This document shows, piece after piece, positions 55,601 to 58,600 of a stretch of 64,000 nucleotides of DNA. Position 1 is the first letter of the stretch. Each line of letters begins with the position of its first letter. Position numbers: made by a program. Source of the stretch: Trypanosoma brucei (lineage: Eukaryota); contig AE017150.2 in NCBI GenBank assembly GCA_000002445.1, positions 576,001 to 640,000 of the forward strand, given 5' to 3'.

Positions 55601-58600
55601 CGCTGGTCTCGCTCACACTCGTTTCAATTCGACATCAATCGAACTGATCTTATTCATACCGCACCCACCCCTGCACTGTGACATTATCCTTTTCACGTAC
55701 GGTACATGCCGTGCCATTGGGATTACATGACAAGTTAAGCACACGCGAGTAATTATGATACGGGCCTGGCCATGCTGTGTTTTCCCAGTTCTGTTCCGCT
55801 ACAAACATACGATCCCCTGTCACACCCGCAACAACGGCAACATGACCGTATGGAAAACCATTGGGTTGCCGTGGGTAAATCAACAAATCCCCCACACGCG
55901 GCTTAGAGTTTGCAGATGTTGCATTTCCGTTATGATATTTGAGTAATGGTTTCCGCTTTTGACCATTGAGCAGTTGAACATCTTTAAGATCCCAAATGTC
56001 AGCTGCTCCATCTACAGAACCAAAAGTGGCTGGTTGTGGTGTACCTCGAAGCATCCAATACCGTCGGGCATATTCCACGCATTGCCATTGCATACCATAT
56101 ATGGGTGGAACCGCATGAGGGTCCACACGACCAGCCGGTATCCGTATGTCTTCCACCTTGACAGTGTTCCAAAGTTCTGCTGTGCAACTATCACTGTTGC
56201 AATTGCTCATAGCTGGAACTCCGTTGTAAATTCCCAACACATTACCAAAAGGGGCCGAGCAATTCTGTTGGCAGCCCACTGAAAGACTCCCAGTGTTTGT
56301 ACTCACCGTATCTTTACTATTTTCCGCGCGAGGGACCTTCATAAGGCAGAGAATGATGACAACTCCCACAGCAAATGAGGCGCCTGCGTAAAGCTTATAT
56401 GAGTCGAAGTTTCTTGCCTCACCCTCACGTTGTAAAAGAGGTCTGGCGGTGCCTGCTTTCCTCGCCGCCATTGCTTCAATTTACACGATACCTCGGGGGA
56501 GGGGGAGGGGCAAAATTAAACTCGATAAACAGGCGAAAAGGGAGTAATGAAGAAGACGAAGGAATTATTTGGTTTATGAACTGTGAGGCTGTATAAATGA
56601 ACTATTATCCACTGTTTCGTACCCCAATCACGCGTGTGCTCACAGCAGGTACTTTCTTTCCTTCCCCCCTTTTTAGTTAATTTGTTTCCTTTTTACCTCC
56701 TAATTACGGGATGGGGTTTCTGTATTTGCTCCCGCTGACTTGTCAGTGAATGAGTATTTGGGACCTTTCAAAGCTGAATAGAAGAGCAACAAAACAAAAC
56801 AAAATGTATAACTCACGAAAAGAAGTCACGTTGTGCGACGTAGCTCCTCAATCGTTTGACAATAATAGATAGCATCACCATATTAAGCAGCAGTAAGGAA
56901 ATAAAAAATAATTTGAAGTAATATAGAAAAGTAAAGGTAGAAAAAATAGAAAAATAAAAATGTTTTCAACACCGTATCGCAGTTGCTTTACGTTTCGTTG
57001 CACCTTTCCTTTCTTTCCCCTTCCTGCCTCTCCACAGTTGTCTGTATTTTTATGCTAAATTTTGTCTACTTTCTCTTTTTTTTTTTTCGTGACCCGCTTC
57101 TCGTTCCCACCAATCACTTGCTCGTATGCCTTCCCTAGAACTAGATTTGTTAAAAAATATTACCCTAGTTAATTAATTAATTTAAATATATTTGCGTTTT
57201 TAAAGAAGGAACCGTTTGGTGGGGAGCGACACCAACTGGCTGGCACATTACCCTCATAACCGGCTTTGTGCTCCACTTCTTCACCGTTGCCGTTGTCGTT
57301 GTTGCTAAATACGCAATATATAAAACAACGTGGACGAAAAGAGGGTAAAATCAAAACAAATTTTGCGCGGAGAATCATCAATTGATGCGAAGCGAAGGCC
57401 AAATGCTTTGAAAAAGTGTGACAACGACACCAAACATATAAAATATGCTTAAATTGCTCCTCGAAAAATAAGATAAAAATAGGAAACTATGGGAGGAACA
57501 AGAAAATCACCTTCCCCCTGTTTTCCTACAGAATCCACCTACCTGTCACCAGAAGTTACCAACTGATGAAATTACTTGCCGTTTTTGTTAAGAAAGTCAC
57601 TAGTAGAGGAAAACAAAACAGAAAAAAAAACGAACAATCGAACTGATCTTATTCATACCGCACCCACCCCTGCACTGTGACATTATCCTTTTCACGTACG
57701 GTACATGCCGTGCCATTGGGATTACATGACAAGTTAAGCACACGCGAGTAATTATGATACGGGCCTGGCCATGCTGCGTTTTCCCAGTTCTGTTCCGCTA
57801 CAAACATACGATCCCCTGTCACACCCGCAACAACGGCAACATGACCGCATGGAAAGCCGTTGGGTTGCCGTGGGTAAATCAACAAATCCCCCACACGCGG
57901 CTTAGAGTTTGCAGATGTTGCATTTCCGTTATGATATTTGAGTAATGGTTTCCGCTTTTGACCATTGAGCAGTTGAACATCTTTAAGATCCCAAATGTCA
58001 GCTGCTCCATCTACAGAACCAAAAGTGGCTGGTTGTGGTGTACCTCGAAGCATCCAATACCGTCGGGCATATTCCACGCATTGCCACTTTAAGCCGCTTT
58101 GGTAACTGGTTCCAGCCACTGTGACGTTGTTATACGTAGTGGTATTCTCTGTTGCACCACAGTTGCTGTAAGAGAAGACGCCCTCATGTGCGCCAAGAAT
58201 AGCACCGACTGGATTGAGGCAATGTTTTTCCACTTTGCCGCTGCCTTCGGGGTAGCGAATGCCAGAGTAAAGCACGCCAAAGGCAATGAAAGAAATAAAA
58301 AGAAGAACGAGTACGCCAAATGTCCAAGCGAATATCGCCTGGGCAATTGAGCATAGGCGTTTTATACCACGCTTCCGGTTGTTGAAAGAACCATTAATGG
58401 CTCCATCATTGGTTTCTGGGACATCGTGAGGATCTTTTTCGTTAGATGAAAGTCGATTAGTCTTCGATGTTACCGCTGGCTCTCTTTCCATGCAGTTAGC
58501 TTATTTTGCCTCCCTTTTTTACTTTGACTCCTCTTTACGTCACCAATGGGCAGGGCGTCTTCTTCCTTTAGGTGAGAATTAATTTGCCGCTGCGGTACCG

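What the first reader, a model, noticed from the sequence alone, without database searches (positions are those of the whole stretch)
55629..58095. Pair of membrane-anchored stand-alone CHAP (Gsp-amidase-like) domain proteins with a homogenised catalytic domain
Two neighbouring minus-strand genes (55650-56471, 57649-58491) encode signal-anchored proteins of about 275 aa. Their C-terminal about 150 aa carry the cysteine-amidase signature WQCVEYARRYW … GHVAVVAGV. This matches the QCVEFARR/His arrangement of glutathionylspermidine/trypanothione amidase (CHAP) domains. In trypanosomatids that domain is classically known as the N-terminal module of trypanothione synthetase. Here it appears as a free, probably lumenal or extracellular, enzyme. 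The DNA of the two genes is near-identical from about 20 nt beyond the stop codon up to exactly the codons preceding the catalytic Cys motif (55629-56090 vs 57638-58088; only 3-4 mismatches) and then diverges completely. So the catalytic domain is being homogenised by gene conversion while the N-terminal regions (anchor plus about 100 aa) are kept distinct.
Basis: partly seen in the sequence, partly recalled or inferred. Interest (0 to 1): 0.7.

Follow-up and report, generated by a model that had tools for sequence, protein, structure and literature searches.

The report
Tandem membrane amidase genes, half homogenised
Two neighbouring Trypanosoma brucei genes for membrane-anchored, glutathionylspermidine-amidase-like cysteine amidases share a 452-base near-identical 3' part that repeated gene conversion keeps identical, and the same pattern with the same boundary occurs in every Trypanosoma species examined; the genes themselves are already annotated.

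Summary
The window is T. brucei TREU927 chromosome 2. ORFs 55650-56471 (A, 273 aa) and 57649-58491 (B, 280 aa), both on the minus strand, share an ungapped 452-nt tract (55636-56087 and 57635-58086) with 4 mismatches. It runs from the Trp codon two codons before the catalytic Cys to 14 nt past the stop. Both proteins hit Pfam CHAP. By sequence and predicted fold they match E. coli Gsp amidase and Leishmania trypanothione synthetase-amidase far better than peptidoglycan CHAP lysins.

The genes are already annotated (MEROPS C51, "D-alanyl-glycyl endopeptidase-like") and listed as a tandem pair by Jackson 2007, but were not analysed there.

New here:
- The same 450-485-nt tract, 97.8-100% identical, with the same boundaries, is present in six Trypanosoma species at DNA level and two more at protein level.
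- Four-fold-site differences are 0-2.7% between paralogs and 32-75% between species.
- The 5' parts are orthologous across species.
- Leishmaniinae keep both paralogs but with 53-55% identical C-parts and other genes in between.

This is genus-wide concerted evolution by partial gene conversion. The substrate and location are untested. It is a new member of a known kind, of moderate interest.

The parts
55650..56471 (-). Gene A (273 aa). Downstream paralog, a type II membrane-anchored Gsp-amidase-like CHAP protein. 100% identical to XP_951594.1. Probably Tb927.2.3440 (ID inferred).
57649..58491 (-). Gene B (280 aa). Upstream paralog, XP_951595.1. Probably Tb927.2.3460 (ID inferred).
55636..56087 (-). 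Homogenised tract, copy A. Runs from the Trp129 codon to the stop (438 nt) plus 14 nt of 3' UTR.
57635..58086 (-). Homogenised tract, copy B. Runs from the Trp136 codon to the stop plus 14 nt of 3' UTR. 448 of 452 nt identical to copy A.
56088..56261 (-). A-specific N-terminal lobe of the amidase fold (residues 71-128). Contains CSAPFGNVLG...SNCNSDSC with four Cys, then a long low-confidence loop (97-124) just before the catalytic helix.
58087..58221 (-). B-specific N-terminal lobe (residues 91-135). The fourth Cys is lost. It is shorter, with two confident beta-hairpins (98-108 and 120-134).
56334..56390 (-). Signal-anchor / transmembrane segment of A (residues 28-46).
58279..58335 (-). Signal-anchor / transmembrane segment of B (residues 53-71). 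Followed by the motif FIAFGVLYSGIRY, which is conserved in B-type proteins of all trypanosomatids examined.
56079..56081 (-). Catalytic Cys131 codon of A. Aligns with E. coli Gsp amidase Cys59. The B equivalent, Cys138, is at 58078-58080.
55842..55844 (-). Catalytic His210 codon of A (E. coli His131). The B equivalent, His217, is at 57841-57843.
55794..55796 (-). Glu226 codon of A in AEQN (E. coli Glu147). The B equivalent, Glu233, is at 57793-57795.
55849..55860 (-). Cluster of 3 of the 4 A/B mismatches (N204 silent, G205 silent, Y208 versus C215). It lies two to six codons before the catalytic His.
56472..57648 (-). 1177-nt spacer between the B stop and the A start. Not shared between the copies. 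No gene lies here, unlike in Leishmaniinae.

Best explanation
**What the genes are.** A and B are two ancient paralogs that already existed in the common ancestor of Trypanosoma and Leishmaniinae. Each encodes a single-pass, N-in/C-out (type II) membrane protein. Its extracytoplasmic part is a complete Gsp-amidase-type CHAP cysteine amidase, with the triad Cys131/His210/Glu226 in A numbering.

**What keeps them alike.** In the genus Trypanosoma the two genes sit directly next to each other. The 3' 450 nt or so of the coding sequence is kept identical by recurrent intrachromosomal gene conversion. This part covers the catalytic helix through the C-terminus, that is, all three catalytic residues.

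**What sets the tract limits.** The tract is bounded upstream by an indel-rich, non-homologous loop that immediately precedes the conserved G-x-K-W-Q-C motif. Downstream it is bounded by non-homologous 3' UTRs. Heteroduplex cannot extend beyond these points.

**What stays distinct.** The cytoplasmic tail, the anchor, the stalk, the N-terminal lobe of the fold and the UTRs remain paralog-specific. Selection for paralog-specific targeting, specificity or regulation probably reinforces this.

**Shown here:**
- the tract and its boundaries;
- silent-site identity within species;
- homogenisation within each of the species examined;
- orthology of the 5' parts;
- fold and active-site conservation.

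**Inferred, not shown:**
- the topology;
- that the enzymes are active amidases on a Gsp-like glycyl-amide or isopeptide rather than on peptidoglycan;
- that homology limits, rather than selection alone, fix the boundary.
For: **Tract in T. brucei.** 452 nt with 4 mismatches, and random-level identity outside it.

**Same tract in other species.** Self-BLAST of syntenic loci finds tracts in five further species:
- T. theileri, 458 nt at 99.1%;
- T. cruzi, 485 nt at 99.0%;
- T. vivax, 316 + 154 nt at 100% and 99.4%;
- T. melophagium, 451 nt at 100%;
- T. rangeli, 457 nt at 97.8%.

L. major has no such tract.

**Boundaries.** In the five species measured, the 5' edge, judged by windowed identity, lies 2-17 nt upstream of the Cys codon. 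In T. cruzi the two copies already differ at the residues flanking the Cys (WQCVE versus WDCME). The 3' edge lies 0-31 nt past the stop by either measure.

**Silent sites.** Four-fold-site differences are 0-2.7% between paralogs within a species and 32-75% between species. This holds even for the close pair T. theileri and T. melophagium, at 31.7%.

**Protein identity of the C-part between paralogs.** It is 98-100% in 7 Trypanosoma species and 53-55% in 5 non-Trypanosoma trypanosomatids.

**Trees.** In the C-part, A and B group by species with 100% bootstrap in all 8 species. In the N-part they do so in 0-2% of replicates. Orthologous N-part pairs are supported instead:
- Tbru_A + Tcon_A, 77%;
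- Tbru_B + Tcon_B, 89%;
- Tthe_A + Tmel_A, 99%;
- Tthe_B + Tmel_B, 86%.

**Deep orthology of the 5' parts.** N-regions of all Trypanosoma B proteins hit Leishmaniinae B-type at 62-86 bits against 33-42 bits for A-type. Gene order TFIIS2-1 / TFIIS2-2 / B / A is conserved.

**Conversion is recent or ongoing.**
- A V/I polymorphism (DLKD[V/I]QLL) is the same in A and B within each genome. It is V in both in TREU927, and I in both in T. b. gambiense and T. b. equiperdum.
- The B copy of T. equiperdum OVI carries the A-type Tyr at FP[Y/C]GH.

**Enzyme identity.**
- Pfam CHAP hits both proteins.
- E. coli GspSA residues 9-189 align, including Cys59, His131 and Glu147.
- C, H, E and N are invariant in 52 sequences.
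- Foldseek gives Gsp amidase at E 4e-14 and TM 0.77-0.80, but peptidoglycan CHAP lysins only at E 1e-4 to 6e-3 and TM 0.27-0.45.

**Topology.**
- There is one hydrophobic segment.
- All N-x-S/T sequons and the conserved Cys pairs lie C-terminal of it.
- Bacterial relatives are about 210-aa proteins with N-terminal signal sequences and the same Cys pattern.
- The L. major A-type ortholog LmjF.33.2850 was detected as an N-glycoprotein (PMC9769760).
Against: - Deep orthology of the short N-lobe alignment (63 columns) has weak bootstrap support. Trypanosoma A is monophyletic in 43% of replicates. Trypanosoma B groups with Leishmaniinae B in 18%.
- For A-type N-regions the BLAST margin is small, 40-57 against 37-51 bits.
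- Assigning the Trypanosoma C-part to the Leishmaniinae A-type has only 67% support and a 3-6 point identity margin. The original donor is therefore uncertain.
- No outgroup such as Paratrypanosoma or Bodo could be identified. It is not known whether homogenisation arose in Trypanosoma or was lost elsewhere.
- Homology-limited tracts cannot be told apart from selection-limited tracts with these data.
- No activity, localisation or paralog-specific expression data for T. brucei were found. The TrypTag supplements held no entry.
- The positive-inside rule is not met in T. cruzi A.
- The gene IDs Tb927.2.3440 and Tb927.2.3460 are inferred from gene order and two papers, not looked up.
Confidence: 0.85

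Rival explanations
1. A recent tandem duplication in T. brucei, after which the 5' halves diverged very fast. The identical 3' half would then simply be young.
For: The two genes are adjacent, and the tract is 99.1% identical.
Against: Both paralog types, with recognisably orthologous 5' parts and the same gene order, occur in all Trypanosoma species examined and in Leishmaniinae. N-part orthologs pair across species with 77-99% bootstrap, and never within a species. In Leishmaniinae the C-parts are only 53-55% identical.
Confidence: 0.03
2. Strong purifying selection on the catalytic core alone keeps the two 3' halves identical, with no DNA exchange.
For: The tract holds the catalytic triad and the most conserved motifs of the family.
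Against: Four-fold degenerate sites are 97-100% identical between paralogs but differ by 32-75% between species. In some species identity continues past the stop codon into untranslated sequence, for example 14 nt in T. brucei and 26-31 nt in T. cruzi. Leishmaniinae paralogs with the same triad are only 53-55% identical.
Confidence: 0.02
3. A single domain swap in the ancestor of Trypanosoma, in which B received the A-type 3' half, with no conversion since.
For: The Trypanosoma C-parts lean towards the Leishmaniinae A-type. One founding event of this kind is therefore plausible as the start.
Against: After a single ancient swap the two copies would by now differ about as much as orthologs do between species (18-40% at nucleotide level). 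Instead they are 97.8-100% identical within each species, and C-parts cluster by species with 100% bootstrap. Polymorphisms are shared by A and B within T. brucei subspecies.
Confidence: 0.03
4. An assembly artefact, in which a collapsed or mis-joined repeat creates an apparent identical tract.
For: Short-read assemblies do break here. The T. grayi contig starts 85 nt upstream of gene A, and the T. conorhini contig ends about 1.6 kb after gene B, before any A copy.
Against: The same structure appears in independent assemblies of six species and three T. brucei subspecies. Copy-specific mismatches and distinct flanks are present.
Confidence: 0.01
5. Functional rival: the proteins are peptidoglycan hydrolases, as the database name "D-alanyl-glycyl endopeptidase-like" implies. 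They might act on bacteria in the insect gut.
For: The CHAP family includes many peptidoglycan hydrolases. There are weak NCBIfam and PDB hits to ScrM, PcsB and phage lysins (E 1e-4 to 1e-2). The genes are listed among candidate prokaryote-derived genes (PMC4711719). Tb927.2.3460 is reported as up-regulated in insect stages (PMC10269879).
Against: Similarity to Gsp and trypanothione amidases is many orders of magnitude better. It also includes the subfamily-specific N-terminal PFGxxLG...YS extension. Pfam finds no cell-wall-binding domain. The database name is only the type name of MEROPS family C51.
Confidence: 0.1
6. Functional rival: the proteins are non-enzymatic binding proteins or pseudoenzymes, like the ER-resident single-domain Gsp-amidase homologue ERGAD of kinetoplastids.
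For: A related single-domain secretory-pathway paralog (ERGAD) lacks the nucleophile and is predicted to be inactive (PMC10903960). In T. cruzi B the residues flanking the Cys are altered, WDCME instead of WQCVE.
Against: Cys, His, Glu and Asn are invariant in all 52 aligned homologues, including both T. brucei proteins.
Confidence: 0.08

Closest known systems
Amidase domain of E. coli glutathionylspermidine synthetase/amidase (GspSA; PDB 3A2Y, 3A2Z, 2IO7) and of trypanothione synthetase-amidase (L. major 2VOB; T. brucei Tb927.2.4370)
   Same: The whole 180-residue fold aligns, including the N-terminal PFGxxLG...YS extension. The Cys59/His131/Glu147 triad and Asn149 are conserved. These are the best sequence and structure matches.
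   Different: The proteins here are stand-alone, with no ATP-grasp synthetase domain. They score 76-80 bits against the 882-bit cut-off of the NCBIfam equivalog. They are membrane-anchored, with extra Cys pairs and N-glycosylation sequons, so they are probably extracytoplasmic. GspSA and TryS are cytosolic. About 26% identity.
Secreted stand-alone CHAP proteins of about 210 aa in Gammaproteobacteria (Ectothiorhodospiraceae and Thiotrichales MAGs, Plasticicumulans, Thiohalocapsa, Beggiatoa)
   Same: Same single-domain architecture. Same C-x3-C...P[FY]G..LG...AYSNC-x3-C Cys pattern as the A-type, and an identical WQCVEYARR motif. Extracytoplasmic, with an N-terminal signal sequence. 34-41% identity over about two thirds to three quarters of the query.
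   Different: They have a cleavable signal peptide or lipobox instead of a long cytoplasmic tail plus anchor. Function is unknown. A quick ORF inspection of eight loci showed no conserved gene neighbourhood.
Partial gene conversion in the T. brucei phosphoglycerate kinase array (PGK-A/B/C; Le Blancq 1988, as summarised in Jackson 2007, PMC1855330)
   Same: Tandem paralogs in a polycistronic unit. A segment is homogenised by gene conversion, while isoform-specific parts that determine location are kept.
   Different: Here there are two genes, not three. The homogenised segment is the catalytic core and the distinct part is N-terminal. The same tract limits are documented in six species at DNA level. 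I did not check whether that has been done for PGK.
[quoted passage not shown]
   Same: A single Gsp-amidase-type domain placed in the secretory pathway of kinetoplastids.
   Different: ERGAD has a signal peptide plus a KDEL-like signal and lacks the catalytic Cys. A and B have a signal anchor and no KDEL-like C-terminus (they end in ...WVRYE), and they keep the full triad.

Membership tests
CHAP domain (Pfam PF05257) / MEROPS family C51 | Profile match above the curated gathering score | tested here: met
   52.1 and 50.3 bits against a cut-off of 26; E 1e-13 and 4e-13
CHAP domain (Pfam PF05257) / MEROPS family C51 | Conserved nucleophilic Cys at the start of a helix, a His on a beta-strand, and a third polar residue | tested here: met
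   C131, H210, E226 and N228 are invariant in 52 homologues. The Cys lies at the start of helix 130-142 and the His on strand 210-218.
CHAP domain (Pfam PF05257) / MEROPS family C51 | Papain-like alpha+beta fold | tested here: met
   In the AlphaFold2 models the core has pLDDT above 90. Foldseek hits to CHAP structures have probability 1.0.
Glutathionylspermidine / trypanothione amidase subfamily | N-terminal extension before the catalytic helix (PFGxxLG...YS) and an alignment over the whole amidase domain | tested here: met
   Query residues 72-270 align with E. coli GspSA 9-189. TM-score 0.77-0.80 to 3A2Y, 3A2Z and 3A30.
Glutathionylspermidine / trypanothione amidase subfamily | Fusion to a C-terminal ATP-grasp Gsp/trypanothione synthetase domain | tested here: not met
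   The proteins end with the amidase domain at 273 and 280 aa. NCBIfam NF007801 scores 76-80 bits against a cut-off of 882, covering profile positions 8-189 of 619 only.
Glutathionylspermidine / trypanothione amidase subfamily | Hydrolysis of glutathionylspermidine or trypanothione | not testable with these tools
   No biochemical data were found. PMC3516576 only predicts amidase activity for the stand-alone T. brucei C51 proteins.
Glutathionylspermidine / trypanothione amidase subfamily | Cytosolic location, where the substrates are | tested here: inconclusive
   A single transmembrane segment, sequons, Cys pairs and signal-peptide-bearing bacterial relatives all point to an extracytoplasmic domain. 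The L. major ortholog is N-glycosylated. There is no direct T. brucei localisation.
Peptidoglycan D-alanyl-glycyl endopeptidases (the database name) | Close similarity to characterised peptidoglycan-cleaving CHAP domains, and cell-wall-binding modules | tested here: not met
   Only weak hits were found: ScrM and PcsB at E 6e-4 to 5e-2, and phage lysins at Foldseek E 1e-4 to 6e-3 with TM 0.27-0.45. Pfam finds no SH3b, LysM or other wall-binding domain.
Concerted evolution by partial gene conversion between tandem paralogs | A near-identical tract with abrupt ends, inside otherwise dissimilar genes | tested here: met
   452 nt at 99.1% identity with random-level flanks. The same is seen in five further species.
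Concerted evolution by partial gene conversion between tandem paralogs | Identity extends to silent sites and non-coding bases | tested here: met
   Four-fold-site difference is 0-2.7% within a species and 32-75% between species. In some species the tract includes 3' UTR bases, up to 31 nt past the stop.
Concerted evolution by partial gene conversion between tandem paralogs | Paralogs cluster by species inside the tract and by orthology outside it | tested here: met
   Inside the tract, 100% bootstrap in all 8 species. Outside it, 0-2% for within-species pairs and 77-99% for orthologous pairs.
Concerted evolution by partial gene conversion between tandem paralogs | Polymorphisms shared between the paralogs of one genome | tested here: met
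   The V/I site is the same in A and B of TREU927, T. b. gambiense and T. b. equiperdum. The B copy of T. equiperdum OVI carries the A-type Tyr (protein level only).

The most novel reading that the evidence does not exclude
The conversion limits are held in place by selection across the whole genus, not merely by loss of homology. Trypanosomes would then run one shared catalytic cassette under two different modules, each made of an N-terminal lobe, an anchor and a UTR. The two isoforms would be ecto- or lumenal amidases with different locations or substrate ranges. They would act on substrates other than cytosolic trypanothione. Examples are polyamine or thiol conjugates salvaged from the host or the insect gut, or bacterial cell-wall-type amides.
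Probability: 0.15. Interest if true: 0.65.

Novelty: new member of a known kind. Interest (0 to 1): 0.4.

Why it matters
**Already known.** The genes themselves are known and annotated. Partial gene conversion between tandem paralogs is a known process in trypanosomes.

**What this analysis adds.**
- This pair is an unusually clean case. The same tract of about 450 nt has been re-homogenised in every Trypanosoma lineage examined. It starts at or within about 20 nt upstream of the catalytic Cys codon and ends at or within 31 nt after the stop codon.
- The sister group Leishmaniinae keeps both paralogs un-homogenised, with other genes inserted between them.

**Uses.**
- The contrast gives a natural system for asking what sets gene-conversion tract limits: homology, distance or selection.
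- It is a practical warning for read mapping, RNAi, CRISPR design and orthology calls. The 3' halves of the two genes cannot be told apart. Orthology tables based on whole proteins will be misled.
- It flags two uncharacterised, parasite-specific, probably extracytoplasmic cysteine amidases with intact active sites that have no human homologue.

Tried and rejected
- **Prior description.** I looked in Jackson 2007 (PMC1855330). The pair appears only in Table S3 as array no. 10, because only arrays with more than 3 copies were analysed. The T. b. gambiense genome paper does not mention it.
- **Localisation.** Neither gene ID occurs in the held supplements of the TrypTag paper. The bloodstream-form tagging paper has no held supplements.
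- **Source organisms of metagenomic homologues.** Cluster look-ups returned no organism names. No outgroup such as Paratrypanosoma or Bodo could therefore be assigned.
- **Bacterial gene neighbourhoods.** I inspected ORFs around eight gammaproteobacterial loci for a functional clue. No recurrent neighbour was evident. The ORFs were not scanned against Pfam.
- **T. grayi and T. conorhini.** Their contigs break at the locus, so only one copy of each was available at DNA level.
- **L. major gene L007:705-2021.** I tested this upstream 438-aa gene as a possible B copy. It is unrelated. The true B copy lies about 10 kb upstream of A.
- **RNA genes.** Rfam (41000-64000) and tRNA (whole window) scans found nothing. 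The antisense ORFs inside the tract (55755-55946 and 57754-57945) are just the two copies of one chance ORF.
- **A lost run.** A first bootstrap run timed out. It was repeated with fewer replicates.
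Full report
**1. What is in the window**

The window is T. brucei brucei TREU927 chromosome 2. Gene A is 100% identical to XP_951594.1 and gene B is the representative of the cluster holding XP_951595.1. 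[quoted passage not shown]

Jackson 2007 lists a tandem pair described as [quoted passage not shown]. It also lists the ISG65 array at 598050-617079. Both entries fit the window if window position equals chromosome position minus 576000.

The neighbouring 401-aa PWWP/Med26 protein (59582-60787) fits TbTFIIS2-2, Tb927.2.3480.

**2. The observation**

The ORFs 55650-56471 and 57649-58491, both on the minus strand, encode 273 and 280 aa. Shifting the sequence by exactly 1999 nt gives an ungapped 452-nt match, 55636-56087 against 57635-58086, with 4 mismatches. Identity on both sides is at random level.

In mRNA sense the tract starts at the Trp codon of WQC, two codons before the catalytic Cys. 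It ends 14 nt after the stop codon.

Two of the mismatches are silent and two change residues (T232/A239 and Y208/C215). Three of the four lie within 12 nt, just before the catalytic His.

**3. What the proteins are**

- Both hit Pfam CHAP above threshold.
- Against solved structures, the best sequence match is the E. coli Gsp amidase domain. Query residues 72-270 align with E. coli residues 9-189, so Cys59, His131 and Glu147 align with C131, H210 and E226. The L. major trypanothione synthetase-amidase comes next.
- The AlphaFold2 models have a confident core: A has mean pLDDT 79 and B 84.5, with the core above 90 in both.
- Foldseek places model A next to Gsp amidase (E 4e-14, TM 0.77-0.80) and TryS. 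Peptidoglycan CHAP lysins are far weaker, at E 1e-4 to 6e-3 and TM 0.27-0.45.
- C, H, E and N of the active site are invariant in 52 homologues.

The database name therefore reflects only the MEROPS family label. The proteins belong to the Gsp/TryS-amidase branch of CHAP but lack the synthetase domain.

The amidase fold begins at about residue 72 of A, upstream of the homogenised tract. The tract corresponds to the Pfam CHAP core (residues 126-228 matched) plus the C-terminal strands. It is not the whole catalytic domain.

**4. Topology (inferred)**

- Each protein has one hydrophobic segment. All sequons and the conserved Cys residues lie C-terminal of it.
- Bacterial relatives are proteins of about 210 aa with N-terminal signal sequences and the same Cys pattern, C-x3-C...AYSNC-x3-C.
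- The L. major A-type ortholog LmjF.33.2850 was found in an N-glycoproteome.

Together these point to a type II membrane protein with a lumenal or ecto-facing catalytic domain. No direct T. brucei localisation was found.

**5. The main new result: the pattern is genus-wide**

Syntenic loci were fetched for T. theileri, T. cruzi, T. vivax, T. melophagium, T. conorhini, T. rangeli, T. grayi, L. major, Leptomonas pyrrhocoris and an unnamed trypanosomatid. The gene order TFIIS2-1 / TFIIS2-2 / B / A is conserved.

- **Tracts.** Self-BLAST finds a 451-485-nt tract of 97.8-100% identity in T. brucei, T. theileri, T. cruzi, T. melophagium and T. rangeli. T. vivax has it split in two pieces by a short deletion. 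L. major has none.
- **Boundaries.** Judged by windowed identity, the 5' edge lies 2-17 nt upstream of the catalytic Cys codon in the five species measured. In T. cruzi the copies already differ at the residues flanking the Cys (WQCVE versus WDCME). The 3' edge lies 0-31 nt after the stop.
- **Silent sites.** Four-fold degenerate sites differ by 0-2.7% between paralogs of one species and by 32-75% between species. The figure is 31.7% even between the close relatives T. theileri and T. melophagium. Homogenisation therefore happened separately in each lineage.
- **Protein level.** The C-parts are 98-100% identical in seven Trypanosoma species, including T. congolense and T. conorhini. They are 53-55% identical in five non-Trypanosoma trypanosomatids.
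- **Trees.** In neighbour-joining trees, C-parts pair by species with 100% bootstrap in all eight species. N-lobes never do (0-2%) and pair with their orthologs instead (77-99%).
- **Deep orthology.** N-regions of all Trypanosoma B proteins match Leishmaniinae B-type about twice as well as A-type. A proteins match A-type consistently but by a small margin. B-type proteins share the juxtamembrane motif F-x-x-FG-x-LYSG-x-[RH]-Y and lack the fourth Cys. A-type proteins keep SNC-x3-C, as the bacterial proteins do.
- **Within T. brucei.** A V/I polymorphism is the same in A and B of each genome. One T. equiperdum B copy carries the A-type Tyr next to the catalytic His. Conversion is therefore recent or ongoing.

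**6. Why the boundary sits there (inference)**

Immediately upstream of G-x-K-W-Q-C, the A proteins carry a loop 10-19 residues longer than in B, with no alignable sequence. This loop has low confidence in model A (residues 97-124) but forms a compact hairpin in model B. The WQCVE[YF]ARRYW motif itself is the most conserved stretch of the family.

A heteroduplex can thus start or end in the motif but cannot pass the indel-rich loop. The unrelated 3' UTRs stop it on the other side. Selection for distinct N-lobes, anchors and UTRs may add to this. The data cannot separate the two causes.

In Leishmaniinae and in the unnamed trypanosomatid, B and A are separated by other genes: an unnamed gene of 394-438 aa (Leishmaniinae) and one to four Y_phosphatase3 genes or a fragment of one. 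In L. major the distance is about 10 kb. In Trypanosoma the spacers are 1.2-2.4 kb. This is a correlation with the absence of homogenisation, not a demonstrated cause.

**7. What is already known**

- Besteiro 2007 notes that Leishmania C51/CHAP proteins had not been investigated.
- PMC3516576 states that T. brucei has five C51 members, four of them amidase-domain-only and uncharacterised, and predicts amidase activity for them.
- PMC4711719 lists LmjF.33.2830 and Tb927.2.3440 among candidate prokaryote-derived genes.
- PMC10269879 calls Tb927.2.3460 a cysteine peptidase family gene that is up-regulated during the bloodstream-to-procyclic and the midgut-to-salivary-gland transitions.
- PMC10903960 describes a different secretory-pathway paralog, ERGAD, which lacks the nucleophile.
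- Jackson 2007 catalogued the pair but analysed only arrays with more than three copies. That paper cites the PGK array as the classic case of partial conversion in T. brucei.

I found no description of the partial conversion of this pair or of its conservation across the genus. The library searched is incomplete, however.

**8. Verdict**

The genes are known and the process is of a known kind. The genus-wide, boundary-conserved homogenisation and its absence in Leishmaniinae are new details of moderate interest. The enzymatic substrate and the location remain open.

Noticed in passing
window 22050-41079 (+): Six tandem 436/437-aa ORFs with a period of 3541-3546 nt. Pfam ISG65-75 hits at E 2e-99. 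This is the ISG65 array (array no. 9 in Jackson 2007 Table S3).
   Followed up: partly
window about 41080-43488: Convergent strand switch. All large ORFs are on the + strand up to 41079 and on the - strand from 43489. GC skew changes sign near 42000. ARAGORN found no tRNA gene anywhere in the window, and no Rfam family matched in 41000-64000.
   Followed up: partly
window 11698-14709 (+): A 1003-aa pentatricopeptide-repeat protein (PPR_2, E 2e-47).
   Followed up: no
window 6001-8000 and 62001-64000: Two markedly AT-rich stretches (GC 0.30 and 0.33, against 0.40-0.51 in most other 2-kb windows). Not examined.
   Followed up: no
window 55567-55592: A (TA)n microsatellite 58-83 nt downstream of the stop codon of gene A, in the A-specific 3' flank. 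Copy B has nothing comparable.
   Followed up: no
L008 13572-19502; L009 12269-21224; L010 11381-11722: In L. major, Leptomonas pyrrhocoris and an unnamed trypanosomatid (Logan SRR22803237), Y_phosphatase3 genes lie between the B and A amidase genes. Leptomonas has four tandem copies and L010 only a fragment. In L. major and Leptomonas an unnamed gene of 394-438 aa lies there too. Trypanosoma has no gene there.
   Followed up: partly
L010 10445-10644 and 12950-13149: In the unnamed trypanosomatid, B and A share only a 208-nt patch of 78% identity around and after the WQC motif. This could be an old, decayed conversion or simply strong constraint.
   Followed up: no
L002 (T. cruzi) gene B 8001-8933; proteins P0019 and P0022: T. 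cruzi B has WDCMEF instead of WQCVEF around the catalytic Cys, in both haplotype versions. In this species the copies therefore already differ at the Cys motif, and the residue before the nucleophile differs between the paralogs.
   Followed up: no
L003 (T. vivax) about 10376-10837; protein P0007: The T. vivax A copy carries a short deletion inside the homogenised tract. Nine residues are missing in strain Y486 protein P0007. The gene was not called in the assembly behind L003.
   Followed up: no
window 55849-55860 and proteins: B-specific substitutions cluster around the catalytic His in T. brucei subspecies: FPCGH instead of FPYGH, and VAVVVGV instead of VAVVAGV in T. b. gambiense and T. b. 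equiperdum. This could be a patch protected from conversion by selection, or chance.
   Followed up: partly
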